From: a virus
Taxonomy: Duplodnaviria > Caudoviricetes
Direction: 5' to 3' (one strand)
Length of the DNA stretch: 57,901 bases
Virus record (IMG/VR): IMGVR_UViG_3300010042_000197
Location: 1-57,901 of that record
The position numbers were made by a program, and so were the translations under genes. The notes below the pieces were generated by a model. The model ran no database searches, was not told where the DNA came from, and saw only the letters and a program-made list of their open reading frames with translations. Positions within the stretch are counted from its first letter, which is position 1. Each line of letters begins with the position of its first letter. Positions 7,518 to 21,060 of this stretch are shown here, in pieces.

Positions 7518-8096
7518 TCAGCGGAACGCTGAGGAGTCGCTCCACTCTTCCACCGGGATGAACCGGAGCCCCTCCGGCTGCGGGGTCATCGACTGCACCC
7601 GGTCCACCACGGAGCGGTGGAAGAGATGCACCACCGACTCCTCCAGCCTGAAGGCAAGGCGCTCTTCGAGGGGCACCTCTCGAAGTACCGCCTCGTCGAG
7701 CACGAGGCTGTCGATGCCCACCACATCCCCGTCATCCGGGTCGACGGTGAGCCGAGAGCGCTGCCGGTCCGCACAGGCGAGGCGCCTCCACATGTGGACC
7801 AGCCAGTAGCGCAACACAGAGTCAGCGACCTGGACATCTGCAGGAACGAACTGGACGCCCCGCAGATCCGCCGCATCAAGCACTTCCTTCAGCCGTGGCG
7901 ACACCACCGGGGCAGGCAGGCTGTGGTGGTCCACCATTGCCGGCGACGACGGCACCGGCTCCCCCAGGCGCAGCTTCACGGGAACCGATGCGTCCACCGG
8001 TCGTCCCTTGCGGAATGCCGAGGCGGACTGGTCCCACGCCAATATCGGATGCTGCTGGGAGCGAGCCCGCAGGAGAACGAAGTAGTCCCGCTGCAT
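7518..8096 (-). CDS. Imm11-family (DUF1629) immunity protein
   Basis: PVVSPRLKEVL..GVQFVPADV..YWLVH..CADRQRS..LVLDEAVL..AFRLEE; directly downstream of the AHH nuclease. Confidence 0.8.
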   Translation of the reverse strand: MQRDYFVLLRARSQQHPILAWDQSASAFRKGRPVDASVPVKLRLGEPVPSSPAMVDHHSLPAPVVSPRLKEVLDAADLRGVQFVPADVQVADSVLRYWLVHMWRRLACADRQRSRLTVDPDDGDVVGIDSLVLDEAVLREVPLEERLAFRLEESVVHLFHRSVVDRVQSMTPQPEGLRFIPVEEWSDSSAFR

Positions 8097-8099
8097 GGC

Positions 8100-8834
8100 C
8101 TACGTCCCCACCTGAAGTGGGCGGCGGACGAGGGGCTTCTTCGTCGTCCCATGACGTACTCCGTGGCGCCTTCCGCTGGGGCATGCCCGAATTGGCTTGT
8201 CCGAGATGCTCCGAACGCCTCCGCATCCTTTCCCGCCGGGTAGGTAGTCGAGGCCATCCGAAGTGATCGTCCATGAGCCGCTCGACAACTTGTCGAGGAT
8301 GTCCTTGCTCGTGCGGTCCAGCTTTTCAACCAGACGAGTGGGCTTCCCGCAGTATGCGCCCGCCTCCACGGACTCAGCGAGCTTCTCCAGCTTGGCCACC
8401 ACCGCAGAGGGGTAGGCCATGTTCAGGTCGAAGGCCCAGCCGTTGGAGTGCGGACCACGATGGACGGGCACGTGCAACTCGCACGCGACCGCCATGTTCA
8501 TCGGAAGGAAGACGCCATTTTCCGCTTTGTTGATGTCGTACCCGAACAGCCAGCAGTACCGAGTCCAGTCCTCATCGTCTGCCATGGCCTCAGAGCAGAT
8601 GAGGTGGTGAGCCGCGATGGAGCGGCGGCCCGTGTACCAGGGATGCGACGCAGGCTCGGCGCCCCTGAGGATGTTGCTGCCCAGCTTCTCGGGGTCTCCC
8701 ACACTCCAACCAGGGGCTTCTGCCGTTGCATGCGCTGGCTTCCCGCAGAACCGGCACGGCTGCCACTTCGCCGGCTCGGGCCACCCCTTCGACGTTTTGA
8801 CCGAAAGCGTCCGCTCCCACGTACCGACAGGCAT
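8100..8834 (-). CDS. AHH-family (HNH/EndoVII) nuclease toxin
   Basis: IAAHHLI, GYDINKAENGVFLP and HRGPH motifs. Confidence 0.85.
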   Translation of the reverse strand: MPVGTWERTLSVKTSKGWPEPAKWQPCRFCGKPAHATAEAPGWSVGDPEKLGSNILRGAEPASHPWYTGRRSIAAHHLICSEAMADDEDWTRYCWLFGYDINKAENGVFLPMNMAVACELHVPVHRGPHSNGWAFDLNMAYPSAVVAKLEKLAESVEAGAYCGKPTRLVEKLDRTSKDILDKLSSGSWTITSDGLDYLPGGKGCGGVRSISDKPIRACPSGRRHGVRHGTTKKPLVRRPLQVGT

Positions 8835-8951: not shown

Positions 8952-9485
8952 TCACAACATGCCCCCGAGGGCAGCGTCCTTGCCGATGAGGAGGAGGTAG
9001 TCCCGGAACGCTTCCCACGTGTTGCCGGCGACGTGCCCCCGCGCGACGGCGTTGGCCTGCCACTCGCGCAGCAGCCCGTCCGCGCGCCACAGCAGCCAGG
9101 GCCGGCCCGCCGCAGTTCGCGCCTCCAGCATGAGGCGCTCCAGCTCGCCCGCCGTCTCCAGGAAGGTGGCCGTCGGGTGCGCCACCAGCCAGTCGTAGGC
9201 GAGGGCCTTCGCGGGGTAGCGCTCCGCCTGGGCCGCCAGCTCGAGCGCGCTGTACTTGCCCCAGTCGTCGGTCAGCCCGGCCACGCCGCTGGCCGCCAGC
9301 GCCTGCAGCTCGCCCTCCAGTTCCGCACGGCGCACCTGGAGCGCCTGGCCAACGGTGGCGAAGTGCCGGGCGGAGGCGCCCGCGGCGTCGAGCTCTCCGC
9401 GCACACGGGCCAGCGTGCACGACACGTCGCGCTTGCGGGACTCGACAGCGTTTCGCCGGTACACCTCTTCGGACGTCAGTGACAT
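8952..9485 (-). CDS. Hypothetical protein downstream of tail fibre (possible fibre chaperone)
   Basis: GGAG RBS, 177 aa, co-oriented directly after the fibre gene. Confidence 0.6.
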   Translation of the reverse strand: MSLTSEEVYRRNAVESRKRDVSCTLARVRGELDAAGASARHFATVGQALQVRRAELEGELQALAASGVAGLTDDWGKYSALELAAQAERYPAKALAYDWLVAHPTATFLETAGELERLMLEARTAAGRPWLLWRADGLLREWQANAVARGHVAGNTWEAFRDYLLLIGKDAALGGML

Positions 9486-9501
9486 GGCGTCTCCGGGCGC
9501 G

Positions 9502-11607
9502 CTACTCGCGGGCCTTGATGTTGTGGGACAGGAGCCCCCGCACGTTGTACGTGCGTGCCCCGTGGACGGTGAGCTGCACGACGTCGCCCTCTCCTGCTTC
9601 CTCTACCCGCTGCACGCGGCCGGGCTGCACCCCTTGGATGGCGTCTCCCGGACACAGCGCGGACAGCGGTGTCCAGCCCCGCTCCTCCAGGTAGAAGCGG
9701 TGCCCCTCAGAGGCCACCACCTCTCGCCCATCCTCCAGCACCAGGCGCAGGCGCTCGGCCCGTGCCGGCCGCGCCGCCATCACCGAGTGCACGTCCCACA
9801 CCAACGTCTCGTCGTGCTGGGTGAGCACCTGCATGCCCGGCCGCACCGCGTCCGCGCGCAGCTCCGTCCCGTCCGCCATGAGGATGGGCTCCCATGGCGC
9901 CGGGCACGGCCGCGTGTCGTCTCCTCCGCCTCCACCGCCGCCACCGTCTGGAGCACCGCCGCCCACCGGCGAGTTGTACTGGGAGGTGAATGCCGCGTTG
10001 CGGCTGGCGACGGGGATGAACCACTTCGAGGCGCTCGGCCCGTACGCGTTGACGACGGACACCAGGAGATACCAGACGGACGTCGTCGTGGTGCTGAGCC
10101 CGGACACCGAGCCCGCTAGCATGTAGTTGAACGACGCGCGGCCCTCGTTGTTCGCCGAGGACTCGGTGGCGTCCCGGTACACCCTGTCCGTCAGCGCGAC
10201 GTGCAGCACCTGGTGGCGGAAGGCGCTTCCGGCCGTCGGCCGCACCCACAACTCCACGCGCGCGTACCGCATGGCATCGAAGTTGTCGTCCAGCGCCTGG
10301 GGCTGGAGGAAGAGCTGCCACGTCGCCCAGGACAGGGACGCGGTGGTGATGTTGTCCGCGCACTCCACGCGCACGCGGTCGATGTTGGGCGCGCCCCCGC
10401 GCACGGCGCCCTGGTTGTTGCCACGGTAGAAGCAGCGGTTGCCGGGGCCGGGGCCGTCGAGGCTGACGAGCCCCTTGTAGAAGAGCGCCTCCAGAGGGTA
10501 GCGGCCCACCTGGAGATTCTGGCTGGCCACCTTCAACGCCACCCCCACGTTGTCCAGCTTCGCGCCCGCTACGGGCACTCCGCTACCGTCCTCCGCGTAG
10601 TTGGACGTCTGCAACGTGTTGGCGCTCAGCAAGTCGAACGTCACCGACTTCCGCAAGCTGATGGCGTCCAGGTACACCGCCTTGCCGATGTCCGCGGCGG
10701 CCGCGTTGAGCTCCCAGACGAGAAGGAGTCCCGTGCACCCGGCCGGGCACGCCCCCTTCACCTTGTACGGCTGGTACGCGGTGGTGAGGCCGGACACCAG
10801 AGTGACGGTGTTGGCGCCCGCATAGTTGCCGGAGGCGTCCAACCAGAAGAAGTAGAGTCCTCCTCCGAAGTTGCCCGACAGCGGCGCGGAGGACTTCAAC
10901 CACGCCTCCGCGAAGAACTCGTCGCCCGCCGCGCACGAAATCCGCTTCGTCCAGACGACGGTGCGGTAACCGGCGGCGTTGAGAGGCACTCGGCGGCACC
11001 ACCGGCCCTCGCGCGCGTTGGCCGGCTCCTCCACCAGGAAGTCCCCCTCGGGAGAGATTCCCAGCGCGGCGGCACCCGCCTCGCCGTACCCGTTGGGCAC
11101 CAGGTTGTCCGAGGGCGGCAGGAGCAGGTGCTGCGTGGCGATGGCGGCCGGCGCCACCTTGCTGGACGTCACCGCCCCCGGGCTCAGGAGGGCGGTGTCG
11201 ACGCTGCCGTCGGGCACGTTGGAGAGCGTCTCGGTTGCCATTCCGATGGTGTCCGGGTCCGCCACTACGACGCCGCCCAGGACGCGCCAACTTCCCTGGT
11301 TGCCGTTGGAGTAGAGGGCCTGTACCGCCGACTTCGCGCTGGTGGTGGCCTTCACCCGCAGCGTCACCACCACGCGCCGCTCCGCGGGCCCCAAACGAAT
11401 GGGCGCCACGAGGTAGTTGTCCGTGTTGTTCGGGTCATCCCCCGTGAAGACGGCCACCTGGAAGCCCTCCAGGAGGTGCAGCGGAAGCGTCTCCTCGTGC
11501 GTCCAGCGGATGTCGAGGTACGTCGGTTTGATGACGCGCGGGCGCGGGAAGCCCGGCTCCCCGTCCTCGACAACGCCCCCCTGCATCTCCTGCTCGCGTG
11601 AGCGCAT
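9502..11607 (-). CDS. Tail fibre / receptor-binding protein with carbohydrate-binding-like domain and C-terminal Hint domain
   Basis: Follows gpJ. FN3-like start, GAVTSSKVAPAAI repeats, NLVPNGYGE..VYLDAISL CBM-like block, Gly linker, then CPAPWEPILMADG...SEGH...GLLSHN (9906..9520). Confidence 0.8.
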   Translation of the reverse strand: MRSREQEMQGGVVEDGEPGFPRPRVIKPTYLDIRWTHEETLPLHLLEGFQVAVFTGDDPNNTDNYLVAPIRLGPAERRVVVTLRVKATTSAKSAVQALYSNGNQGSWRVLGGVVVADPDTIGMATETLSNVPDGSVDTALLSPGAVTSSKVAPAAIATQHLLLPPSDNLVPNGYGEAGAAALGISPEGDFLVEEPANAREGRWCRRVPLNAAGYRTVVWTKRISCAAGDEFFAEAWLKSSAPLSGNFGGGLYFFWLDASGNYAGANTVTLVSGLTTAYQPYKVKGACPAGCTGLLLVWELNAAAADIGKAVYLDAISLRKSVTFDLLSANTLQTSNYAEDGSGVPVAGAKLDNVGVALKVASQNLQVGRYPLEALFYKGLVSLDGPGPGNRCFYRGNNQGAVRGGAPNIDRVRVECADNITTASLSWATWQLFLQPQALDDNFDAMRYARVELWVRPTAGSAFRHQVLHVALTDRVYRDATESSANNEGRASFNYMLAGSVSGLSTTTTSVWYLLVSVVNAYGPSASKWFIPVASRNAAFTSQYNSPVGGGAPDGGGGGGGGDDTRPCPAPWEPILMADGTELRADAVRPGMQVLTQHDETLVWDVHSVMAARPARAERLRLVLEDGREVVASEGHRFYLEERGWTPLSALCPGDAIQGVQPGRVQRVEEAGEGDVVQLTVHGARTYNVRGLLSHNIKARE

Positions 11608-11618
11608 GGTGAGGCCCG

Positions 11619-14138
11619 CTAGACTGGCGGCGTGGACGACACCGTCATGGTGATGGAGGACGGCACCGTGGGCGCCACCACCACGGTGAGGCTGGGAGCG
11701 TTGGTGGAGTAGTTGCCCGAGGTGTCGATGGCCTTGATGCGCACCACCTGGTTGACGCCGAGCGCCGGCAGGGCCCACTCGAAGGAGGTGGCTCGCACCT
11801 TGGCGATGAGGGAGGCCGTCTCCCAGCTCGAGCCCCCGTGCCGCAGCTCGTACATGTCCCTGTCCAGGTCGGGGATTTCCGCCCACCGCAGCGTGGCGGT
11901 GACGCCGTTGAGGGAGGACACGAAGCCGGCCACGTCCGAGGGCGGGGCCGCCTTGCCCAGCACCGTGTACGCCGCCTCGGCGAAGGCGGTGGTGAAGCCG
12001 CCCAGCTCGGCCGCCACCTGCACCCGGTACGGGCCCGGCGCCACGTCCGCCAGCTCCCAGAAGTGCGTCTGGAGGCGCTCCTCGGCGCTCCAGTTGCCCT
12101 CGGACAGGCGCCAGCGCACCACATACGCGACGGCGCCGGGCCGCTGCGTCCACCGCGCATTGAGCTGCACCCTCACGCCGCCGTTGGTCGTCTTGTAGAG
12201 GCCTTCGCCCACCACCAGTCCCTCAGGTGGAGACGACGAGGGCAGCACGGAGGTGGGCAGGGGCTGGAGCTTCACGCCCTGCTCCACCGCGGCGTACTTG
12301 CCTGGGTGGTGCGCCAGCGCCGTCACCTCGTAGACGTGCGGCTCCACCTCGGCGACGGCCAGCACGCGCCAGAGGGTGGGCACCAAGTCCGTGGCCGCCA
12401 GCACCCAGACGGCCTGGGGCACGGGCGCGGCGGAGAATGGCGCCGCCAGCGTGAGGGCGCGGTACGGCGCCGCCGGCAGGGCCGCCACGGGCCGCTCTTC
12501 CACCGTGCCGTCGGGCAACACCACGGAGAGGGTGTACGTGTGCCCGGCTTCGAGGGTGACGTCCGCGTCCAGTTCCACGCGCGACGCGGTGGCCTCCACC
12601 ACCCGCCCGCCCCAGCGCCTGCCCGCGCGCGTCGGGTCCACCACCTTCACAACGGCCCCGGGGTTGCGCAGCGCGCCCTCCAGGCCCGTCCTGAAGACAA
12701 TGGTCTCCGTCTCCAGCCGCTCGGTGTGCAGCAGCCACCGGCCCACCCGCTGCGCCTGGCTGCGCGAGGTGCACCCCAGCGCCACCACGTCCGTGGGGTT
12801 GTAGCCGTAGTCGAGCATCCCCTCCTCGTCCGGCACGTGCTCCACCGCGGCCTTGTACTGGTTGGCCGGGTCGTTCCAGGTGACGAGCGCGACGGTGTGC
12901 CGCGCGCGCCGCGAGGTGCCCGAGTAGGTGAAGAGGCCGTCCACCACGTTGGCGGGCGTGAAGAGGTACTCGGCGTCCCGGGGCGCGTCCTGGGCGACGT
13001 ACACCGCGCCGCTGGCCCAGTAGACGAGGCCTCGGAAGACGGAGGCGAGGTTGCCCACCACCTGGTACGCGTCCGCCTGCGTCTGGAGGTAGAGGTTGCA
13101 GGTGAAGCGCGGCTCCATGCCGCCCTTGCCGTCCGGCACCAGCTCGTCGCAGTAGCGGGCCACCGTGTACAGGCCCCACTTGTCCACCTGGGCCTCGTCC
13201 AGGTAGCGGCCCAGGCCGTACCGCTTCGTCGTCAGCAAGTCGTACAGGCACCACGCAGGGTTGTCCGTCCACGCCACCTGGAAGGTGCCGTCCCACGTGC
13301 CCGAGTACTCGCGCGTGGCCGCGTTGTAGTTGCTGGGCACCCGCACCTTGAGGCCGCGAATCCGGTAGCTGCGCGTGGGGACGCTGCCGAACTGCCGGGC
13401 CGACACCTCGAGGGCCACAATGGCCGTGTTGGGGAAGCTCAGCTTCTCGTCGATGAGCGTGGCGTAGGACTTCCAGAACGTACGGTTCTGCAGGACGACG
13501 TATTCCGAATCGGGAGTGAGGCGCCGCACGCGGATGTCCCACGGCGGGCTGCCGGTGAGCTCCACGCGGTACGTCCTCTCGTAGGGACTGGTGCACTTCC
13601 CGCGGATGACGCCAGCGCCCTGCAGGTCCTGCTCCACCCAGCCGCCGCCGTTGCTCTGCAAGTCGATGGCGATGTTGAGGGTGGACGGCTGCAAGTCCCC
13701 CGTCTCCGGGTGCTGGTACGTCAGCTGCGGTACCTGCAAGGTGACGCGCACCGCGTCCACCTCCGAATCGAAGATGGTGCGGACGGCCGGCAGGCTCTTC
13801 TTCACCTCCGCGTTGACGCTGAACTCCGCCTCGGCCGCGGTGAAGCCGGGGATGTACTCCTGCCCCTGGGTGCCCGGCACGTCGTACACCGTGACGTCGC
13901 GGAAGTTGGGCGTGTCGTTGATGGTGTGGACCGGGACGCCGTCCAGGAAGACGCCCTTCAGCCCGCCGACGAGTCCTTCGATTTCCCCCTCACACAGCAC
14001 GTCCAGCACGCGCGCGTGCGCGGCGGACTTCAGCGTGTCCGGGGACTCCACGGGCGAGCGCTGGGCGTCGCCTCCGCCCTTCCCTCCGCTTCCTCCGCCC
14101 GCGCCTCGCAGCGCTCCCCGCTCAAGGTGCTTCGTCAT
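11619..14138 (-). CDS. J: Central tail tip / host-specificity protein (lambda gpJ-like)
   Basis: PVESPDTLKS..LDVLCEGEIEGLV, WTDNPAWCLYDLLT..RYGLG, GCTSRSQAQRVGRWLL, C-terminal FN3 repeats. Confidence 0.93.
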   Translation of the reverse strand: MTKHLERGALRGAGGGSGGKGGGDAQRSPVESPDTLKSAAHARVLDVLCEGEIEGLVGGLKGVFLDGVPVHTINDTPNFRDVTVYDVPGTQGQEYIPGFTAAEAEFSVNAEVKKSLPAVRTIFDSEVDAVRVTLQVPQLTYQHPETGDLQPSTLNIAIDLQSNGGGWVEQDLQGAGVIRGKCTSPYERTYRVELTGSPPWDIRVRRLTPDSEYVVLQNRTFWKSYATLIDEKLSFPNTAIVALEVSARQFGSVPTRSYRIRGLKVRVPSNYNAATREYSGTWDGTFQVAWTDNPAWCLYDLLTTKRYGLGRYLDEAQVDKWGLYTVARYCDELVPDGKGGMEPRFTCNLYLQTQADAYQVVGNLASVFRGLVYWASGAVYVAQDAPRDAEYLFTPANVVDGLFTYSGTSRRARHTVALVTWNDPANQYKAAVEHVPDEEGMLDYGYNPTDVVALGCTSRSQAQRVGRWLLHTERLETETIVFRTGLEGALRNPGAVVKVVDPTRAGRRWGGRVVEATASRVELDADVTLEAGHTYTLSVVLPDGTVEERPVAALPAAPYRALTLAAPFSAAPVPQAVWVLAATDLVPTLWRVLAVAEVEPHVYEVTALAHHPGKYAAVEQGVKLQPLPTSVLPSSSPPEGLVVGEGLYKTTNGGVRVQLNARWTQRPGAVAYVVRWRLSEGNWSAEERLQTHFWELADVAPGPYRVQVAAELGGFTTAFAEAAYTVLGKAAPPSDVAGFVSSLNGVTATLRWAEIPDLDRDMYELRHGGSSWETASLIAKVRATSFEWALPALGVNQVVRIKAIDTSGNYSTNAPSLTVVVAPTVPSSITMTVSSTPPV

Positions 14139-15195
14139 GGGGCCGCTCCGGGTCCTCGTTCTTGGTGTTGTGCGAGAGGAAGCCCACCGTCTGGTAGGTG
14201 TGCGCGCCGGCCACGGTGATGCGCACCACCGGGCCCCGCCCGGCCGCCTCCGCGCAGGCCACCACGCCCGGGCGCTCGCCGACGAGGCGCATGCCCGCAT
14301 CCAGGTGCCGCAGCTCCTCCCATGCGGCCTCAGTGCGCACGCGGTGGTTGTACGTGCCCACCAGCTCCCGGCCGTCCTCCAGCACCAGGCGCCAGCACTC
14401 CGCCTCCAGCGTGGAGGCGTGGGAGACGGGGTAGTCGCCCCACTCCAGCGTCACCTCGTCCTGGGTGCGCACCCACGCGCCCACGCGCACGTCACCCGCG
14501 GGCACCTCGCGGCCGTCCGAAAGCAGAATGGGTACCCACGGCGCCGGGCACCCTCCGCCCACGGGCCCCTGCCCTCCCGGGCCGTGCTGCCCTCCCGCGC
14601 CTCCGCCGAAGCCGCCGCCCGCGCTCCACTCAGTGGAGATGCCGGCGGACACCACGCAGCTCCCCACCACCATTTCCCCGTAGCAGAGCGGCACCGGGTG
14701 GCCCTGGGCCAACGTATTCACGGGCCCGTTGAAGACGTAGTTGGGCTGGGCGTCAGGCTTCTCCAGTGGCCCCGTGGCCGGGGGCGGTTTGAAGAGGAGC
14801 TGCGCGGCGCCTCCCACCATGAGGCTGCTGCCCAGGGCGATGAGCTGCCCGCCCACCGCGCCGTAGTCGTAGACGGAGAGCACCGCACCGCCAGCGATGA
14901 GCACCGCCCCCAGCACCACCTGGAGGACGCCCGCCTGCTTCGCGCCCGCCAGCGCCGGCAGAATCGTGATGCGCTTCCCCGTGGTGACGCCCAGCTCCTC
15001 GGCGCCGACGTCGCGCTCTCCGACGAGGACGTGGTAGCCGGGAGCGCTGTTCTCCGCGAGGTAGCGGCTGAAGCCCTCGCAGACCGCGCAGAGGGCGCGC
15101 ACCGCCTCCGCGGGCGTGGGCACGCCCAGCTCCAGCGTCCACTCCCGCCCGAAGCGCTGGCCCAGGGGCCCGCCGAGCACCACCGTCGTCAGCAT
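14122..15195 (-). CDS. I: Tail assembly protein (lambda gpI-like, N-terminal ubiquitin-like fold) fused to C-terminal Hint domain
   Basis: LGGPLGQRFGRE..TPAEAVRAL..ILPALAGAK, TM-like segment, NYVFNGPVNTLAQGHPVPLCYGE, then GGG|CPAPW...TYNH...GFLSHN (14550..14167). Confidence 0.88.
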   Translation of the reverse strand: MLTTVVLGGPLGQRFGREWTLELGVPTPAEAVRALCAVCEGFSRYLAENSAPGYHVLVGERDVGAEELGVTTGKRITILPALAGAKQAGVLQVVLGAVLIAGGAVLSVYDYGAVGGQLIALGSSLMVGGAAQLLFKPPPATGPLEKPDAQPNYVFNGPVNTLAQGHPVPLCYGEMVVGSCVVSAGISTEWSAGGGFGGGAGGQHGPGGQGPVGGGCPAPWVPILLSDGREVPAGDVRVGAWVRTQDEVTLEWGDYPVSHASTLEAECWRLVLEDGRELVGTYNHRVRTEAAWEELRHLDAGMRLVGERPGVVACAEAAGRGPVVRITVAGAHTYQTVGFLSHNTKNEDPERPHDEAP

Positions 15196-15929
15196 AGGGT
15201 GCGATGCCGCACAACCTTCCGAGTCACCCGTGCCCAGAAGCCGCTGTACGTCTCCCTCTTGGAGAGCGAAGCCTGGAGGTGGTGGAGGACGACGTCCGCG
15301 CCCAGGTACACGCCTGCGTGGTTGGGGACCTTCGCGCGCAGCTGCATGAGGAGGACGTCGTGCTGACGCAGCGACTGGCCGGTGACGTCGACGAAGCCCG
15401 CCTTCTCGTAGCCCTCCAGGTAGAGGTTGGCGCCCTTGGCCCACCAGTCGTCGGGGCGCTCGAAGTCGGGCAACTCGAGCCCCAGCGTCTCGCGGTAGTA
15501 GTCGCGGATGAGGCTGAAGCAGTCCAGGACGCCGTGGGAAAACTCCCGTCCCACCAGGGGTGCTCTGTAGCCCGAGGGGTACAGCACCTGCCAGTGCCCC
15601 ACCGGCACGTTGACGATGAGCCAGGGCAGGCCCCAGCGCTCGCACATGACGCGGTCCGCCTCGCTCGGCTCCGGGGAGGCGTTCGGGTGCGAGTGCACCA
15701 CCGCCACCACCTCCCCCTCCGCCTCGGCGCTGGCGAAGTCCTCGGGCGCCAGGTGGAAGTGGGCCTGGCCCTCGGCGAGATTGCGGCAGGGCCGATACGC
15801 CAGCTCGCCTGCGGCGCGCACTACGAGGCCGCAGGACTCGCGGGGAGCCTCCGCGCTGGCGTGCTCCAGGGCGGCGATGACTGGGGCACAAGGCAACGCG
15901 AAGCCGGATATCATACCAATAATCCCCAT
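15189..15929 (-). CDS. K: Tail assembly protein (lambda gpK-like; JAB/MPN + NlpC/P60)
   Basis: PRESCGLV..HSHPNASPEPSEAD (JAB) and GVLDCFSLIRDYY..NHAGVY (NlpC/P60); exact start uncertain (15914 or 15929). Confidence 0.92.
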   Translation of the reverse strand: MGIIGMISGFALPCAPVIAALEHASAEAPRESCGLVVRAAGELAYRPCRNLAEGQAHFHLAPEDFASAEAEGEVVAVVHSHPNASPEPSEADRVMCERWGLPWLIVNVPVGHWQVLYPSGYRAPLVGREFSHGVLDCFSLIRDYYRETLGLELPDFERPDDWWAKGANLYLEGYEKAGFVDVTGQSLRQHDVLLMQLRAKVPNHAGVYLGADVVLHHLQASLSKRETYSGFWARVTRKVVRHRTLC

Positions 15930-16108
15930 TTCGGGCGCACGGCGAACCGCACCAACTTCACCCGCCCAGGGGACAAATTCCGAGCCGCTCAGAACAAACT
16001 ATCGGTCTGACATCGACAGCCACACCAATAGACACACCCCTTCCTCGATGCGCGAAGGGTGGAACGAGTGGTGCTTCACGATGACAAACACCACTCGTTC
16101 GCTCGCAA

Positions 16109-16339
16109 CTACATTGGACGACCACATCCAGGACAGGCCTGCGCCGAGGCAAAATACCCACCCGATGCGACATTCGCAGATTTCTGCATCAACTGAGGCA
16201 TCCCCTTGACGCCCTCGCTCAACTGCGCAATCAAAAAACGAAGCTGCTCTTGACTGAGTCCCCCCTTGAGTTGCGCAGCAACGGCAGCCAATCGCGCCTT
16301 CTCAGCAGCATCAAGCATCACAACCCCCTGGACTTTCAT
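16109..16339 (-). CDS. Small protein with C-terminal CxxC (CPGCGRPM)
   Basis: ATGA overlap with the upstream gene's stop at 16336-16339. Confidence 0.6.
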   Translation of the reverse strand: MKVQGVVMLDAAEKARLAAVAAQLKGGLSQEQLRFLIAQLSEGVKGMPQLMQKSANVASGGYFASAQACPGCGRPM

Positions 16340-17049
16340 TTTACTCTCTCCTGCGCACACCGCTTACATCTTGAAGAAAACTTCCCTGCTTGCCATTTTT
16401 TCTTAAACTTCCGCGCCTCCGCAAGGCGACTAAACATATCGGAGCCCGCGCCCCACTTCTGGCTACAGAACGGGCACGACATCCACAAATGAGACGAGAG
16501 CGCTCGCTGCGCCGCATAGATCTCAATCTCTTCCGAAACATGTGCCTGCTTCGCCTGGAGCAACCCCAAAACGCGCTCAAATTCCTTCGCAATAAGACGG
16601 ACCTTCTCGATGGCTGGCGCACGTTCCGCTGGTGTCGTAGCGCTCACCACCTCAGCGAGCGCGGTTTTCATCTCATTCTCCGCCGTATGCAGCGGCATCT
16701 GAACCGTCTGACTCGCCTCCAACTGCGAGTCCAACTGATTAGTCAAACTAAAAATAGACCAAGCAAACGACAGCACACCCAGAATACCAGACGTCACCAC
16801 CGCAGCTTTAAACATTACTGAACCCGCGTCCGCCAACCCCGTACCAGCAAGCATGAAGACAGCGGGCCCCAGGCCAATTCCCACGAAGTTCGCGCGCCTT
16901 TGCCACCTAGTAATCTGGGCAGCGCGCTGCTCATAGGCCACCCTGGAATGGGTACCCTCACCGGCCAATCGATTAGCTGTCGCAAGCAGAGCGTTGTCAC
17001 CGGGCGACAAAGGAAGTGACGCTGAACCTTCTGGCAGACTTGAAGTCAT
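16336..17049 (-). CDS. SLATT-like 2TM protein with C-terminal CxxC..CxxC (mobilome CxxCx(11)CxxC-like)
   Basis: AYEQRAAQITRWQRRANFVGIGL (TM1), SGILGVLSFAWSIFSL (TM2), YAAQRAL..CPFC..CKRC; lower GC than flanks. Confidence 0.65.
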   Translation of the reverse strand: MTSSLPEGSASLPLSPGDNALLATANRLAGEGTHSRVAYEQRAAQITRWQRRANFVGIGLGPAVFMLAGTGLADAGSVMFKAAVVTSGILGVLSFAWSIFSLTNQLDSQLEASQTVQMPLHTAENEMKTALAEVVSATTPAERAPAIEKVRLIAKEFERVLGLLQAKQAHVSEEIEIYAAQRALSSHLWMSCPFCSQKWGAGSDMFSRLAEARKFKKKWQAGKFSSRCKRCAQERVK

Positions 17050-17457
17050 TGGATGGCCTCCGCAACCTGCAAGGAGTCACGCTGCAGGGTCACACAATCC
17101 GACTACGCCACTCCGCATTGTTAGACTTACTACCTAGGATCGACCCAATTGCATGTCCACACCTTTCCACATGCCACATGCACCCACCAAGAACGCCATG
17201 TCCAGCGCACTTGCCGCAGCAGTCCGCCCCCCCTGACACCTGGGACCTGAATCGGGGCCACGCCCTGCATGCTTAGTCTGTAAGGCGCCACTGGCTGAAT
17301 GGCCTAGCGTGGCTTACCCCTGGGTCACCCCTATCCCACCACCCGTCCAGTAGCCCCAGCCCCTCTTGCACAAGGTGTTTCGGAACAGGAATACCCTTGA
17401 CGACCGCATTGGTCCCGATGTGCCTTATGGGCGCATCCACCAGCAACGGAGAATGCC

Positions 17458-17973
17458 ATGTCGACGTATGACCCACGCGAAGCATTGCTGCTCATGGCCG
17501 ACGCGCAGGAGCGCGCCACGCCAGATGGCAAAGCAAGACACAACGGCGCGCTGAAGTTGTTGGAGTCGCTGCTGGAACTCAACGGGAAAAATGGCTTCAT
17601 CATCAATGCGGAGAACAGCACCGCAATCCGGATGTCGTATCCAACTCCCCAGCCACCACAGCGAAGAGCCGACGCGGTGCTCTCTTACATGGCGGGCGCC
17701 TTCATTGTTCGGCGGGACCAGACGAACAGCCCCGTCGAGGGGCTTACCTGGGATCATCGGAGCGGACAGTGGCAGGGCCCTCCACTGGGCGAGAAGGACG
17801 GCACGCCAGTGCGATGCTCGGCGCTGGCGGTTCTCGTGGGAGCAGCACTCGGGCTCCCCGACGCCGCCCTTAGAAACGCACTCGGCCCATCACCGGTTTC
17901 CCCTCAGGACTGGAGCAACACATTTGGGTCCGAGGTCATCCCAAGTGAGTCTCGCTGGGGGGATGACGAGTAG
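17458..17973 (+). CDS. Hypothetical protein (moron)
   Basis: GGAG RBS, 171-aa ORF opposite to the tail operon. Confidence 0.6.
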   Translation: MSTYDPREALLLMADAQERATPDGKARHNGALKLLESLLELNGKNGFIINAENSTAIRMSYPTPQPPQRRADAVLSYMAGAFIVRRDQTNSPVEGLTWDHRSGQWQGPPLGEKDGTPVRCSALAVLVGAALGLPDAALRNALGPSPVSPQDWSNTFGSEVIPSESRWGDDE

Positions 17974-18220
17974 TTTCCGCAGTCCGAGAGGACGTCCGGG
18001 GCTCTCGACGACGAGTCCTCGGAGGACGAGGCTTCCGTCATCATCAGCCCCGGAGCATCCCGTGCCCGTCCCCGTTGCACTCCAGGCCACACCACAAGAG
18101 TTGGCCGCCATCACCGCTGCGGCGAAGGTCAGCTCGCTCCCAATGGAGCGTTTCATCGAGCATGCCGCCGTCGACGGCACCTCAATGGAACTGCGGGGCG
18201 TGATGAATCGCCCGACCTGA
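17963..18220 (+). CDS. Ribbon-helix-helix-like small protein (DUF1778-like)
   Basis: VPVALQATPQELAAITAAAKVSSLPMERFIEHAAV fits the RHH pattern. Confidence 0.45.
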   Translation: MTSSFRSPRGRPGLSTTSPRRTRLPSSSAPEHPVPVPVALQATPQELAAITAAAKVSSLPMERFIEHAAVDGTSMELRGVMNRPT

Positions 18221-18402
18221 TGGCCAAGCCCCCGCACGTCGACATCGGCAACGCCGAATACGAGCAGGCCTCCCAAACAGCTCACCGATTGAATGTCCCT
18301 GTCGGGAGGTACGCCGTCCTGTCCGCGCTGCGCTACATTCGCATCATGCAGATGAGCCACTCGCCCGAGTCCGCTTGGCGGGGAGTCTCCCTGCCGGCCT
18401 GA
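18220..18402 (+). CDS. Second small RHH-like protein
   Basis: TGATG coupling; HVDIGNAEYEQASQTAHRLNVPVGRYAVLSAL. Confidence 0.4.
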   Translation: MAKPPHVDIGNAEYEQASQTAHRLNVPVGRYAVLSALRYIRIMQMSHSPESAWRGVSLPA

Positions 18403-18432
18403 AGCATCACGGCCAGGTACCCCAACAATCCA

Positions 18433-19056
18433 TCATGACTGCGAGTCCCTCACCGGCTCCGACAATGCCCGCTCGATGGGCCACCCCAACCTGAGCCGGT
18501 CGTAGACGGTTGCCCTCTTCCGACCAAGACGCTCACACCACTCCAGGACGGTCAGCGTCACTCCTTCAAGAGTGACACGCCTGTTGGAGCGCTTGTTTAG
18601 ACTCTGCTCTCGGAGGCTAGCCCAGCGGCAGTTCTCCGGCGCGTAGGGGCCGTCGTTGTCGATGCGGTCGAGCGTTGTACCAGGCGGACGCTCGCCCATG
18701 TCCGCCAGGAAGTTCTCGAAGGAGCGCCACCGCTCGCACACGGTGATGCCGCGCGCTCCATACTTCACATAGCCCGGGTACTTCGGGTTCGTACAGCGCG
18801 TGAGCAGCGACTTCCAGGTCCGGTGGGTGGGGGAGCCCGCCCGACCATGGGTACGGTTCCGCGTCGCAAGTTGCTCACGCCGCAGACACCCGCATGACGA
18901 GGTGTGCCCGCGCTGAAGATTGGCCGCGGCTACCGCCTTCATCGAGCCACAGGCACACCTGCACCACCGCCGCACCGTCCTTCCCGTCTTCGGAGATTCC
19001 TCCACCACCACGAAGCGACCGAATGTCCGCCCAGTGAGGTTAATCTTGCACGGCAT
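18433..19056 (-). CDS. Free-standing HNH homing-endonuclease-like protein
   Basis: NLTGRTFGR..WCRCACG..TSSCGC..YGARGITVCERWRSFENFLADMG..TLDRIDNDGPYAPENCRWA. Confidence 0.88.
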   Translation of the reverse strand: MPCKINLTGRTFGRFVVVEESPKTGRTVRRWCRCACGSMKAVAAANLQRGHTSSCGCLRREQLATRNRTHGRAGSPTHRTWKSLLTRCTNPKYPGYVKYGARGITVCERWRSFENFLADMGERPPGTTLDRIDNDGPYAPENCRWASLREQSLNKRSNRRVTLEGVTLTVLEWCERLGRKRATVYDRLRLGWPIERALSEPVRDSQS

Positions 19057-19071: not shown

Positions 19072-19767
19072 TCACCTGAGAAGTCCACAACCGGGAAAGC
19101 CTCCGAAGGGGAGAACAGCCGTCTGCCCGAAGCGCGCCTTGCAGCTTGAGAGGCGCTTGCCACACCTGTCCTGGGCCGGGTCCGACGTCGGCGTGTCGTC
19201 CGCCTTCGCGGCGGGTGGCCCCGCGTACCCGCACCCCTCGCCCCGGTACTGCCAGCCGCACATCTGGGTGATGACGCGCAGGGGAATCCGGACAGCCTCC
19301 AGGTCACACCGGGCCGCGAGGGTGAACTCGATGAGGTGCTTGTTCTCCGTCGTCTTCGCGTCCACGACGAACTCGTCGTCCGGGAAGCCCTCCGATGGGC
19401 TCGCGGTGGGGTTGACGCCGCCGGGGAAGTTCACCGCGTCCAGGTAGCGGACGAAGGTGCGCTTGCGGATGACGCGCGCGCCCAGCAGGTCGTTGCAGTC
19501 CCGCGCGAGGGCGCCCAGCGTGCCCTGCAGGTTGGCCATGGTGAGAGTGGGCCGGGGGAAGCGCCCGGTGCCCGACTTCTCGAAGCCGCGGGCCTGCACG
19601 GGCCAGGGCTGGTAGGAGGCGCCCTGCCACACCACGGGCCCGCCCAGGCCGTTGGTGCCCGCGTGGAAGTGGCTGATGCCGCCTCCGGGGATGGACGACG
19701 CGTCCAGGACGAAGAGCTCCACCAGGGCACCTGGCTCCAGCTTCTGGATGTCCTCGGCGATGCTCAC
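19072..19767 (-). CDS. L: Minor tail protein (lambda gpL-like)
   Basis: IQKLEPGALVELF..VVWQG..RPTLTMAN..KRTFVRYLDAVNF..CGWQYRGEGCGY..DRCGKRLSSCKARFG..LPFGGFPG. Confidence 0.93.
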   Translation of the reverse strand: MSIAEDIQKLEPGALVELFVLDASSIPGGGISHFHAGTNGLGGPVVWQGASYQPWPVQARGFEKSGTGRFPRPTLTMANLQGTLGALARDCNDLLGARVIRKRTFVRYLDAVNFPGGVNPTASPSEGFPDDEFVVDAKTTENKHLIEFTLAARCDLEAVRIPLRVITQMCGWQYRGEGCGYAGPPAAKADDTPTSDPAQDRCGKRLSSCKARFGQTAVLPFGGFPGCGLLR

Positions 19768-20413: not shown

Positions 20414-21001
20414 CTACCCCGCCACTTCCTGGAACTCCGCGCTGACGTCGTGGGAGTTGAAGCCCTTCACAGTGGACGACCAGCTCTCGCAGACGACGCG
20501 CGCCACACGCTCGCCGTTGGCCGTGAAGGAGAGCGCCGCGCTAGGCGCTGGGGCAGCGGTGAAGGTGACGAGTCCGGAACTGGAAAGCACGTAGTCCACG
20601 CCCGCGGATAGGAGCACCCCGTTCCGGTACACCTGCGGAGGTGCCGTCCAGCCAGTCGCCGGCACCCTCTCGCCGGGCACTTCGGGCGCCACGGGCCGCT
20701 CGAGGAGGTACTGCGTACGCGCGCCATCGCCGGTGCCCAGCGGGAAGCCGGTGACGTCCCAGGCGCTGGACGGCACGACGAACTCGAAGGACTCCACGCC
20801 CCTGCGCGCAAGGAGAAAGGCCTCGATGGCGTCGGCCTCCTTCTTCCGGCGGGCGTTGAACTGAAGAGCCCATCGAGGGAGGACGGTCCGCATCCCATCC
20901 TCCGAGCGCTGGGCGTAGCCATCACCGAACTGGGCCTTCAGGACGCGCGGCTGGGTTTGTTGCTGGGCGCCGTAGTCCGGCGTGAAGTAGAAGGTCTCCA
21001 T
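20414..21001 (-). CDS. M: Distal tail protein (lambda gpM-like) with inserted DUF2460-like domain
   Basis: PRVLKAQFGDGYAQR..IEAFLLARRGVESF and VVCESWS..SAEFQEV flank an insert GTGDGARTQYLL..YRNGV..GLVTFTAAPA. Confidence 0.85.
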   Translation of the reverse strand: METFYFTPDYGAQQQTQPRVLKAQFGDGYAQRSEDGMRTVLPRWALQFNARRKKEADAIEAFLLARRGVESFEFVVPSSAWDVTGFPLGTGDGARTQYLLERPVAPEVPGERVPATGWTAPPQVYRNGVLLSAGVDYVLSSSGLVTFTAAPAPSAALSFTANGERVARVVCESWSSTVKGFNSHDVSAEFQEVAG

Positions 21002-21060
21002 GCCCTGATCGTCAAAGCCCAGGAGGACGTCGTCCACGACGACGCATTGCGTCGCAGCGG

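What the first reader, a model, noticed from the sequence alone, without database searches (positions are those of the whole stretch)
9502..15195. Two tail-tip proteins carry related C-terminal Hint (intein-like) domains
Seen: the gpI-like protein (Hint at 14550..14167) and the tail fibre (Hint at 9906..9520) both end in a Gly-rich linker plus a 128-129 aa domain. Both start CPAPW-x-PIL-x-x-DG, contain RLVLEDGRE plus a block-B-like T/SxxH (TYNH, SEGH), and end G-x-LSHN followed by x-K and a short tail. Known: Cys1, TxxH and terminal His-Asn are the Hint/intein catalytic elements, which form a thioester at the upstream junction; lambda gpI has no such domain. Inference: the same cassette on two structural genes, at the extreme C terminus and without a homing endonuclease, looks like a functional device rather than a parasite. 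It could be a self-removing assembly chaperone, or a way to activate each C terminus for covalent ligation to another virion protein, a lipid or a small molecule (Hedgehog-like chemistry).
Basis: partly seen in the sequence, partly recalled or inferred. Interest (0 to 1): 0.88.

Follow-up and report, generated by a model that had tools for sequence, protein, structure and literature searches.

The report
Self-removing Hint domains on phage tail proteins
Two tail-tip proteins of a Myxococcus prophage end in an intact intein-like (Hint) self-processing domain from a large, unstudied phage-tail family. The family always keeps a lysine just after its cleavage site, which hints at an unusual lysine-based cutting or joining chemistry.

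Summary
The gpI-like gene (14122-15195, minus) and the central-fibre gene (9502-11607, minus) each end in a Gly-rich linker, a 128-129 aa domain and a short tail. The two domains are 49% identical (E 2e-34).

A family profile matches inteins and BIL domains (E 1e-10 to 1e-12). The AlphaFold model (pLDDT 95.8) overlays inteins, BIL domains and Hedgehog Hint at TM about 0.8. So the domain is a Hint domain. It is not a splicing intein, and neither window copy matches Pfam PT-HINT.

The family is large: 2125 representative clusters. Every named PHROG family that its carrier proteins matched is a tail family.
- Cys1 is present in 146 of 146 domain starts, and the block-B His and terminal His-Asn are kept.
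- 157 of 157 domain ends have a Lys within four residues after the Asn, and no protein stops before it.

Most likely the domain removes itself. Possibly the tail protein's C terminus is first passed to that Lys as an isopeptide, as Tetrahymena BIL2 does.

In evolution it behaves as an exchangeable, patchily distributed cassette. This is a new variant of a known kind, and none of it has been tested at the bench.

The parts
14122..15195 (-). gpI-like tail assembly protein fused to a C-terminal Hint domain (357 aa precursor)
   Evidence: ORF and translation. The body matches phrog_32 tail assembly protein at E 7.5e-54. It aligns with 11 homologues.
14551..15195 (-). I-like body (about aa 1-190) plus Gly-rich linker (about aa 191-215, ...GGGFGGGAGGQHGPGGQGPVGGG)
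   Evidence: I-like proteins without a Hint stop just after the motif GSQVISAGL, where this linker begins.
14167..14550 (-). Hint domain of the I-like protein (Cys216 to Asn343; block B TYNH; terminal His-Asn)
   Evidence: dN/dS is 0.12-0.21 against the three nearest relatives, the same as the I body.
14125..14166 (-). 14-aa tail after the terminal Asn (TKNEDPERPHDEAP), with the family-invariant Lys345 at 14163-14161. It overlaps the J start codon (14138-14136).
11619..14138 (-). J-like tail tip / central fibre protein. Its N-terminal arm reads ...GGGSGGKGGG....
   Evidence: phrog_31 at E 6.9e-283; Pfam FNIII-A_GpJ and Phage-tail_3.
9502..11607 (-). Distal central-fibre protein fused to a C-terminal Hint domain (701 aa precursor)
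   Evidence: Homologues are fused to J in P0033 and P0096. NCBI names the homologues 'Hint domain-containing protein'.
9520..9906 (-). Hint domain of the fibre (Cys568 to Asn696; block B SEGH; terminal His-Asn), preceded by Pro at position -1
9505..9519 (-). 5-aa tail IKARE, with the invariant Lys698 at 9516-9514
9491..9960 (-). Mosaic patch. DNA identity to the closest prophage (L003, Myxococcus eversor) is 0.58-0.68 in six of eight 60-base bins here (0.85 and 0.87 in the two over conserved motifs). It is 0.75-1.0 in the rest of the alignment. The patch coincides with the end of the linker, the Hint and the stop codon.
8952..9485 (-). orf177, a protein of no known family that accompanies the Hint-type fibre
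   Evidence: Found in all 10 fetched loci whose fibre ends in a Hint of this lineage, and in distant L027. Missing from the 3 loci with a Hint-less fibre. No match in Pfam, PHROGs, NCBIfam or the protein atlas.
15189..15929 (-). gpK-like protein (Prok-JAB + NlpC/P60), upstream neighbour

Best explanation
Both genes encode precursors whose last 128-129 residues before a short tail are a catalytically intact Hint (Hedgehog/intein superfamily) domain. It is most like A-type bacterial intein-like (BIL, PT-HINT-like) domains. It belongs to a large subfamily that no curated model captures and that sits on phage tail proteins.

Proposed mechanism:
1. The domain folds. This is predicted, not shown.
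2. Cys1, helped by the block-B T/SxxH, turns the peptide bond at the end of the Gly-rich linker into a thioester. This is inferred from residue conservation.
3. The thioester is resolved in one of two ways. Water or a thiol may attack it, which is plain N-terminal cleavage. Or, the variant I favour among the non-trivial ones, the epsilon-amine of the invariant Lys 1-2 residues after the terminal Asn attacks it.
4. His-Asn cyclisation then frees the Hint.

The mature gpI-like plug and the central fibre would therefore lack the Hint. Their C terminus would be either free or capped by a 5-14 aa peptide linked through an isopeptide bond.

In evolution the domain behaves as an exchangeable cassette that sits in Gly-rich ends and seams of tail-tip proteins. 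Whether the phage gains from it, for example as a removable cap or a timing lock, or merely tolerates it, is open.
For: Identity of the domain:
- A 49-sequence profile matches solved Hint domains: 8w20 at E 9e-13, gp41-1 intein at 4.6e-11, C. thermocellum BIL 2lwy at 9.1e-11.
- Among relatives, 25 of 49 and 35 of 49 match Pfam PT-HINT.
- The AF2 model has pLDDT 95.8. Foldseek gives TM 0.78-0.81 to BIL2, DnaB inteins and the Cth BIL, and 0.77 to Hedgehog Hint.

Catalytic residues are kept across a deep family (2125 clusters at E<=1e-3):
- Cys1 in 146 of 146 domain starts.
- The block-B His and the terminal His-Asn are invariant in the 49-row alignment.
- His-Asn was located at 157 domain ends.

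This is not canonical splicing. Position +1 is Ser or Thr in 5 of 154 and never Cys.

The Lys:
- 152 of 157 ends have Lys at +1 or +2. The other 5 have it at +3 or +4.
- The shortest tail after the Asn is 2 residues, so no protein ends before the Lys.
- As a control, 7 of 8 loci with other Hint domains in Myxococcales genomes lack such a Lys.
- As a precedent, BIL2 of Tetrahymena forms a K(epsilon-NH2)-to-C-terminus isopeptide by Hint chemistry (passages of PMC8616854).

Purifying selection: the I-Hint has dN/dS 0.12-0.21, equal to the I body.

Removal is structurally plausible. In lambda, gpI residues 135-223 form a trimeric plug in the tip lumen beneath the tape-measure C terminus (passages of PMC10721106).

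Cassette behaviour:
- The Hint lies on the I side in 12 of 78 loci with I-like genes, on the J side in 9, and was found in neither in 56.
- Hint-less fibre alleles exist in 3 of 14 myxobacterial loci.
- The window's fibre Hint is a swapped allele.
- Only 2 of 32 members of another carrier family have it.
Against: - There is no biochemical or proteomic evidence. Cleavage is inferred only from residue conservation and analogy.
- Neither window domain matches Pfam PT-HINT or Hint at E<=10 on its own. The only match is Intein_splicing at E 0.016 for the fibre copy, below the curated cut-off.
- The window's fibre has Pro at position -1, seen at 0 of 146 relatives' starts. From recall, Pro at -1 hampers N-terminal cleavage in inteins. 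The same allele does persist at 89% identity on another prophage's fibre.
- The position of the intein block-F Asp holds Arg, Lys or Gln (my own reading of the alignments).
- The conserved Lys could be structural, or could assist Asn cyclisation, rather than act as a nucleophile. I could not read coordinates from the model to measure its distance to Cys1.
- The Lys statistic comes from the best 150 hits of a profile that itself contains the xK motif. It therefore says nothing about the roughly 1975 weaker hits.
Confidence: 0.6

Rival explanations
1. It is a purely selfish or neutral BIL-type passenger. The Hint is an intein-like element that has settled in Gly-rich termini and seams of tail proteins. 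It spreads by ordinary homologous recombination and is kept catalytically intact only because failure to self-remove would cripple the tail protein. It gives the phage nothing. This concerns the biological role and is compatible with the chemistry of the best explanation.
For: - Distribution is patchy. In 56 of 78 loci with I-like genes I found no Hint. Only 2 of 32 members of a second carrier family have it, in a hypervariable middle. Hint-less fibre alleles sit next to an I-Hint in 3 of 14 loci.
- A discrete allele swap coincides with the domain borders.
- A-type BILs are described as lying in hypervariable regions of non-conserved proteins (passages of PMC7765530).
- Only 1 of 50,697 deposited phage genomes has a match.
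Against: - No endonuclease or other mobility function is attached.
- The I-Hint is present in all 12 complete I genes that are at least 67% identical to the window's body. That looks like stable vertical inheritance.
- His-Asn and the Lys are kept even where only 2-5 residues follow. Mere self-removal by N-terminal cleavage would not require that.
Confidence: 0.3
2. It is a removable assembly device. The Hint would act as a cleavable C-terminal cap, intramolecular chaperone or timing lock that keeps the plug and the fibre from assembling or binding too early. It would be shed once the trimer has formed. This would be a functional analogue of the Peptidase_S74 intramolecular chaperone of tail spikes (recalled).
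For: - All carrier proteins identified lie on the three-fold axis of the tail tip, by lambda analogy: I, the J N terminus, the central fibre and tape-measure-like proteins.
- The I-Hint is under the same constraint as the I body.
Against: - Most lambda-like tails do without it.
- Hint domains solved so far are monomeric autoprocessing modules (recalled).
- The fibre already has its own linked accessory gene, orf177, which could be the chaperone.
Confidence: 0.2
3. It is a ligation device acting in trans. The thioester would be passed to another molecule. One candidate is the Lys in the Gly-rich N-terminal arm of J (GGKGGG), which would join I covalently to J. Other candidates are another virion protein, a lipid or a host surface nucleophile.
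For: - The Hint sits exactly at the I|J seam, on either side of it.
- BIL2 conjugates to lysines of other proteins (PMC8616854).
Against: - A cis Lys right after the Asn is always available and explains the conservation more simply.
- The GGKGGG arm of J is also present in phages without any Hint.
- No sterol-recognition-like region follows the Hint.
Confidence: 0.1
4. It is a remnant or relative of a polymorphic-toxin stalk. Tail-fibre repeats followed by a HINT peptidase and a C-terminal toxin is a known architecture. Here the toxin would have been lost, or would be supplied by the AHH/Imm11 pair downstream.
For: - HINT peptidases occur with phage tail-fibre repeats in polymorphic toxins (passages of PMC3482391).
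- An AHH nuclease and an Imm11 gene lie two genes downstream.
Against: - The genes sit in a complete lambda-like tail module of a provirus that also has portal and major head genes.
- No toxin domain was found after the Hint in any of the 49 proteins with C-terminal extensions.
- AHH/Imm11 also accompanies Hint-less fibres and is absent from other Hint-fibre loci.
Confidence: 0.04

Closest known systems
A-type bacterial intein-like (BIL) domains / Pfam PT-HINT (PF07591), e.g. the Clostridium thermocellum BIL (PDB 2lwy)
   Same: Hint fold. N-terminal Cys, block-B TxxH and C-terminal His-Asn. No Cys/Ser/Thr at +1. Found in variable regions of non-conserved proteins and patchily distributed. Profile E 9.1e-11 and TM 0.78 to 2lwy. 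25 of 49 and 35 of 49 relatives match PT-HINT.
   Different: Neither window domain reaches PT-HINT at E<=10. Here the domain is at the extreme C terminus, with a 5-14 aa tail instead of a toxin or other cargo. The carriers are virion tail proteins. The signature is CP[AD]P...SHN-x-K with an invariant Lys. PT-HINT-like domains from the same bacterial order read CF[VA]AGT...WVHN followed by [NTASC][SCT].
BIL2 of the Tetrahymena thermophila BUBL1 locus (PDB 6Y75/6TMM)
   Same: Best Foldseek match (E 1e-9, TM 0.81). It is a Hint domain whose thioester is resolved by a lysine of the C-terminal flank, giving an isopeptide (PMC8616854).
   Different: 16% sequence identity. BIL2 is flanked by ubiquitin-like domains and serves conjugation in a eukaryote. 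Lysine chemistry here is only inferred from conservation.
Mini-inteins (e.g. Ssp/Npu DnaB, gp41-1)
   Same: Fold (TM 0.75-0.81) and blocks A, B and G. No endonuclease.
   Different: No functional C-extein and no conserved +1 nucleophile. The window's I copy has Thr at +1, but its relatives have Leu, Ala or Val. The domain is not inserted in a conserved catalytic site.
Hedgehog C-terminal autoprocessing (Hog) domain
   Same: A C-terminal Hint that forms a thioester at a Gly-Cys junction and releases the N-terminal part. TM 0.77 to 1at0.
   Different: No sterol-recognition region follows. The terminal His-Asn is kept here.
Peptidase_S74 intramolecular chaperone of tail spikes and fibres (recalled from memory; not tested beyond Pfam)
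   Same: A C-terminal, self-cleaving domain on trimeric tail fibres. It is the closest functional analogue if the Hint is a removable assembly aid.
   Different: Unrelated fold and chemistry (a Ser-Lys dyad in a trimer). No Pfam match here.
Lambda gpI (tail tip assembly / plug protein)
   Same: The first 190 aa of the window protein match the I family end to end. The gene order K-I-J is kept.
   Different: Lambda-type I proteins end where the window's linker begins. The Hint is an add-on.

Membership tests
Hint (Hedgehog/intein) superfamily | Hint fold | tested here: met
   AF2 model with pLDDT 95.8 and pTM 0.88. Foldseek finds 60 PDB matches at E<=0.001, and the 49 listed are all inteins, BIL or Hog domains, with TM up to 0.82. 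The BFVD matches are intein-bearing or Hint-named viral proteins.
Hint (Hedgehog/intein) superfamily | Sequence homology to known Hint domains | tested here: met
   Family profile against PDB: 8w20 at 9e-13, 6qaz at 4.6e-11, 2lwy at 9.1e-11. NCBIfam: the intein part of NF038136 matches at E 1.5e-9 for the fibre copy and 7.4e-5 for the I copy, both far below the whole-model cut-off.
Hint (Hedgehog/intein) superfamily | N-terminal nucleophile and block-B T/SxxH | tested here: met
   Cys1 in both window copies and in 146 of 146 relatives' starts. TYNH and SEGH align with the intein block B, and the His is invariant.
Protein-splicing inteins | Cys/Ser/Thr at +1 of a C-extein that must be rejoined | tested here: not met
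   +1 is Ser or Thr in 5 of 154 and never Cys. The window copies have Thr and Ile, with tails of 14 and 5 aa. Relatives of the I copy have Leu, Ala or Val.
Protein-splicing inteins | Homing endonuclease, or insertion in a conserved site of an essential enzyme | tested here: not met
   The domain is 128-129 aa and has no insert. The carriers are tail proteins, and the insertion points are Gly-rich linkers.
A-type BIL / Pfam PT-HINT | Cys1 plus a C-terminal His-Asn, with no +1 nucleophile | tested here: met
   The definition is taken from passages of PMC7765530.
A-type BIL / Pfam PT-HINT | Match to the Pfam PT-HINT model at its curated threshold | tested here: not met
   Neither window domain matches at E<=10. 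Relatives match at E<=0.01 in 25 of 49 and at E<=0.001 in 35 of 49. Only the first member's bit score against the cut-off was shown (P0007: 43.7 against 27.7).
A-type BIL / Pfam PT-HINT | Lies just upstream of a C-terminal toxin or other cargo that it releases | tested here: not met
   In 101 of 150 proteins fewer than 35 aa follow the domain. No toxin family was found in the 49 proteins with extensions.
Lysine-resolving Hint (BIL2 type) | A lysine of the C-terminal flank attacks the thioester, giving an isopeptide | not testable with these tools
   Only the precondition is shown: Lys within four residues after the Asn at 157 of 157 ends, and never truncated away. The chemistry needs mass spectrometry.
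Hedgehog Hog domain | A sterol-recognition region after the Hint that recruits the lipid nucleophile | tested here: not met
   Only 14 and 5 residues follow the Hint.
Lambda tail assembly protein I | Full-length match to the I family, and position between K and J | tested here: met
   phrog_32 at E 7.5e-54 over profile positions 2-198 of 203. K-like gene upstream and J-like gene downstream.

The most novel reading that the evidence does not exclude
This would be a large natural class of 'lysine-splicing' Hint domains. The domain would transfer the C-terminal carbonyl of a phage tail protein onto the epsilon-amine of the invariant Lys just after its terminal Asn, and then excise itself.
- Tail-tip proteins would leave assembly with an isopeptide-capped C terminus.
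- Where the domain is internal, as in tape-measure-like and other virion proteins, the two halves would stay joined through an isopeptide.
- At the I|J seam the same chemistry could tie the plug covalently to J.
Probability: 0.3. Interest if true: 0.85.

Novelty: new variant of a known kind. Interest (0 to 1): 0.63.

Why it matters
If the chemistry is as inferred, more than two thousand sequence clusters of uncultured phages carry a compact (about 130 aa), endonuclease-free Hint module. It would process the ends of tail fibres, tail-tip plugs, J proteins and tape-measure-like proteins.

That would add a second, chemically different solution to the known self-cleaving chaperone domains of tail spikes.

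It would also give the intein field a natural family in which a lysine, not Cys/Ser/Thr, may resolve the thioester. Such a domain could be useful for traceless C-terminal cleavage or for isopeptide ligation.

The family further shows that intein-like cassettes can live at protein termini and at gene seams (I|J), where splicing is not needed. This bears on how such elements persist without homing endonucleases.

Finally, automated annotation names the fibre homologues 'Hint domain-containing protein' but misses the domain on the I homologues.

Tried and rejected
- Single-sequence Pfam and PDB searches of the two domains gave nothing usable. Profiles were needed.
I used the two-row alignment A1 instead.
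- Homotrimer of the Hint domain: complex prediction with 3 copies returned 'no answer' (score 0.00). This is no evidence either way.
- Do the I-borne Hints have one origin or several? In a FastTree they are scattered among fibre-borne ones. In the IQ-TREE quick tree the label needs 5 changes, but no well-supported branch forces more than one. The AU test does not reject one clade (p 0.50). Unresolved.
- orf177 as a Hint partner: it travels with the Hint-type fibre. The I-Hint has no such neighbour, and orf177 matches no family. I treat it as an accessory of the fibre, not of the Hint.
- AHH/Imm11 as cargo of the Hint: rejected, because it occurs independently of the fibre type.
- The HNH endonuclease ORF 18433-19056 as a homing partner: it lies in a variable L-K cargo region, about 3.2 kb from the I gene and 3.9 kb from the I-Hint. 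A homologue was found in only 1 of the 17 related loci searched (L019). No link is apparent.
- A Hint-free homologue of the second carrier family (L122) had no match in the deposited phage collection, so I could not name that family.
- Literature searches found no paper describing Hint domains at the ends of gpI, J or tail fibres. The library lacks most subscription journals, so this does not prove absence.

Full report
**What is there.** The window is an IMG/VR provirus of 57.9 kb, about 68% G+C. It has portal, MuF-like head morphogenesis, major head and tape-measure genes.

On the minus strand lies a lambda-like tail-tip module:
- M-like gene, 20414-21037.
- L-like gene, 19072-19767.
- A variable cargo stretch.
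- K-like gene, 15189-15929 (Prok-JAB + NlpC/P60).
- I-like gene, 14122-15195.
- J-like gene, 11619-14138 (phrog_31, E 6.9e-283).
- A 701-aa fibre gene, 9502-11607.

In two relatives (P0033, P0096) the J and fibre parts form one protein. The 'tail fibre' is therefore the distal part of the central fibre.

**The observation.** It holds exactly. The I-like protein is a full-length I body (phrog_32, profile positions 2-198 of 203, E 7.5e-54). A Gly-rich linker follows, then a domain from Cys216 to Asn343, then a 14-aa tail. The fibre ends in a Gly-rich linker, a domain from Cys568 to Asn696, and the tail IKARE.

**Is it a Hint domain?** Single sequences are nearly invisible to curated libraries:
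- Pfam gives nothing for the I copy at E<=10. For the fibre copy it gives only a sub-threshold Intein_splicing match (E 0.016).
- NCBIfam gives only sub-threshold matches to the intein parts of intein-bearing enzymes.

A profile of the two copies found 2125 proteins at E<=1e-3 among 1.84 billion cluster representatives. Of these, 537 were at E<=1e-10 and 53 at E<=1e-30.

A 49-sequence profile then matched solved Hint domains: 8w20 at 9e-13, gp41-1 intein at 4.6e-11, and the C. thermocellum BIL 2lwy at 9.1e-11. Of the 49 members, 25 match Pfam PT-HINT and 17 match Intein_splicing at E<=0.01.

The AlphaFold model built on that alignment has pLDDT 95.8. Foldseek ranks BIL2 of Tetrahymena, DnaB/DnaE/RecA mini-inteins, the Cth BIL and Hedgehog Hint at TM 0.74-0.82. 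BFVD returns intein-bearing and Hint-named viral proteins. The fold and the homology are therefore settled.

**What kind of Hint.** I examined the best 150 proteins.
- Cys1 is present at 146 of 146 complete domain starts.
- Position -1 is mostly Gly, Thr, Ser, Ala or Tyr, and never Pro.
- +1 after the terminal Asn is Ser or Thr in 5 of 154 and never Cys.
- The block-B His and the terminal His-Asn are invariant in the 49-row alignment.

So this is not a splicing intein. It fits the description of A-type BIL domains: His-Asn kept, no +1 nucleophile, and a home in variable regions of non-conserved proteins (passages of PMC7765530).

One feature stands out. All 157 domain ends with a His-Asn have a Lys within four residues after the Asn: 152 at +1 or +2, and 5 at +3 or +4. 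The shortest tail after the Asn is two residues, so no protein stops before that Lys.

As a control, I looked at eight loci with other Hint domains from Myxococcales genomes. These are of the CF[VA]AGT...WVHN type and sit in very large ORFs. Seven lack a Lys at +1 or +2, and the exception is a tandem Hint.

A caveat applies. The 150 were ranked by a profile that contains the xK motif, and the weaker hits were not inspected.

**Where the family lives.**
- In 101 of the 150 the domain ends fewer than 35 aa from the C terminus. In 49 a longer extension follows or the domain is tandem.
- By BLAST, 41 share the window fibre's body, 6 are I-Hint fusions and 5 have J-like parts.
- I scanned 45 of the remaining C-terminal cases against PHROGs. 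Every named family they matched is a tail family: tail protein, tail fibre, central fibre J, tail spike, baseplate spike, tail fibre assembly.
- Some internal cases carry tape-measure motifs.
- Deposited phage genomes almost lack the domain: 1 of 50,697 records, by tblastn.
- Close relatives of the window's copies are in prophages of Myxococcus, Corallococcus and Pyxidicoccus.
- In a sample of 151 genomes of that order, 22 have a match at E<=1e-5 and 10 at E<=1e-30.
- NCBI names the fibre homologues 'Hint domain-containing protein'. It names the I homologues 'tail assembly protein' or 'hypothetical protein'.

**Co-occurrence and cassette behaviour.** I fetched 17 loci around close relatives; some are the same prophage recorded twice.
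- 14 have an I-Hint.
- Of these 14, 10 also have a fibre ending in a Hint. Three have a fibre with the same first 140-190 residues but a different, Hint-less distal part. One is cut by the contig end.

Among 78 viral loci found with an I-Hint alignment:
- 12 have the Hint on I. All I bodies at least 67% identical to the window's do.
- 9 have a more distant Hint at the start of J instead, after an 11-aa leader. The layout is M...GSGG|C...VHN|GGGGKGGG..., and the sequence after it is the normal J N terminus.
- One is cut.
- In 56 I found none.

So the Hint sits at the I|J seam on either side. [quoted passage not shown]

The I-Hint evolves like its carrier. Its dN/dS is 0.12-0.21 against the three nearest relatives, the same as the I body.

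The fibre Hint does not.
- Against the nearest prophage (L003), the fibre body is 92% identical (dS 0.26) and orf177 downstream is 96% identical. The Hint is only 64% identical (dS 0.68).
- DNA identity falls to 0.58-0.68 in six of the eight 60-base bins between 9491 and 9960. In the two bins over conserved motifs it is 0.85 and 0.87.
- The same Hint allele occurs at 89% identity on a fibre whose body is only 68-82% identical. It includes the odd DDTRP|C junction and the IKARE tail.

In a second, unnamed carrier family of uncultured viruses, 32 ORFs keep both conserved ends. Only 2 of them have the Hint, in the hypervariable middle.

Whether the I-borne Hints have one or several origins is unresolved (AU test p 0.50).

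**How it most likely works.**

Shown:
- The precursors are encoded.
- The catalytic set (Cys1, block-B His, His-Asn) is intact and under purifying selection.
- A Lys is always kept after the Asn.

Inferred: an N-to-S acyl shift at the linker-Cys bond, resolution of the thioester, and Asn cyclisation that frees the Hint.

Removal fits the lambda structure. There, gpI residues 135-223, up to its last residue, form a trimeric plug in the tip lumen under the tape-measure C terminus.

The unbroken Lys conservation would not be needed if only N-terminal hydrolysis mattered. I therefore consider it a real possibility (about 0.3) that the Lys is the nucleophile, as in Tetrahymena BIL2. BIL2 makes a K(epsilon-NH2)-to-C-terminus isopeptide (passages of PMC8616854) and is also the best structural match. 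The product would be a tail protein capped by a short isopeptide-linked peptide. For internal copies, the two halves would be joined through an isopeptide.

**Against.**
- There are no experimental data.
- The window's fibre has Pro at -1 (0 of 146 elsewhere). From recall, this disfavours N-cleavage in inteins.
- The Lys may be structural.
- The position of the intein block-F Asp is not Asp here (my reading of the alignments).

**Role.** The patchy distribution, the allele swap and the Hint-less sister alleles are what one expects of a BIL-type passenger.

On the other hand, two things leave room for a use, such as a removable cap, a timing lock or a ligation:
- The I-Hint is stably inherited in its lineage.
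- His-Asn-x-Lys is retained even at extreme ends.

A homotrimer test of the domain gave no verdict. The polymorphic-toxin reading is unlikely, although tail-fibre repeats + HINT + toxin is a known architecture (PMC3482391):
- No toxin domain follows the Hint in any of the 49 proteins with extensions.
- The AHH/Imm11 pair downstream is independent of the fibre type.

**Novelty.** Hint and BIL domains and their autoprocessing are known. HINT next to tail-fibre repeats is known in toxins. NCBI already labels the fibre homologues as Hint-containing.

New here:
- The size and the tail-protein specificity of this subfamily.
- Its terminal and seam positions on I, J, the central fibre and tape-measure-like proteins.
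- The invariant post-Asn Lys.
- The cassette exchange.

Five literature searches found no description of this. The library lacks most subscription journals, and supplements were closed.

**Verdict.** This is a new variant of a known kind. It is of moderate to high interest, mainly because of the lysine.

Noticed in passing
window 7518-8834 (minus): A toxin-immunity pair lies two genes downstream of the fibre. It consists of an AHH-family HNH/EndoVII nuclease (8100-8834, PF14412, E 7e-10) and an Imm11 protein (7518-8096, PF07791, E 3e-13). It is present beside both Hint-type and Hint-less fibres in relatives, and absent from others.
   Followed up: partly
window about 16000-19056: A variable cargo region lies between the L-like and K-like tail genes. 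G+C drops to 0.58. It holds an HNH endonuclease ORF at 18433-19056 (phrog_374, E 3e-68) and ORFs with no family. The L-K spacing varies from about 0.8 to 4.8 kb among relatives, and the HNH homologue was seen only in L019.
   Followed up: partly
window 8952-9485 (minus): orf177, immediately downstream of the fibre, has no match in any family library. It is present in all 10 fetched loci whose fibre ends in a Hint of this lineage and in distant L027. It is absent where the fibre is Hint-less.
   Followed up: partly
L047, L048, L049, L055, L064, L070 (two tandem I-like genes); L077 (locus begins within the I region); L089, L090 (single I gene): The J protein (2374-2470 aa in seven of these loci) starts with an 11-aa leader and a Hint domain inserted into its Gly-rich N-terminal arm.
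   Followed up: partly
proteins P0012, P0015, P0016, P0030, P0007, P0008, P0011: These proteins carry 2-4 tandem Hint domains separated by short Lys-containing, Pro-rich or Arg-rich linkers. Some have tape-measure motifs at the end. They may be self-cutting or self-joining polyproteins.
   Followed up: no
L114-L156 (family of P0021): An unnamed virion-type protein family of uncultured viruses has conserved N- and C-terminal parts and a hypervariable middle. Only 2 of 32 members carry the Hint in the middle. There is no match in deposited phage genomes.
   Followed up: partly
window 14122-14138: The I-Hint gene and the J gene overlap by 17 bases in different frames. This may explain why the I-Hint tail motif (DPExPH) is conserved among relatives.
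   Followed up: no
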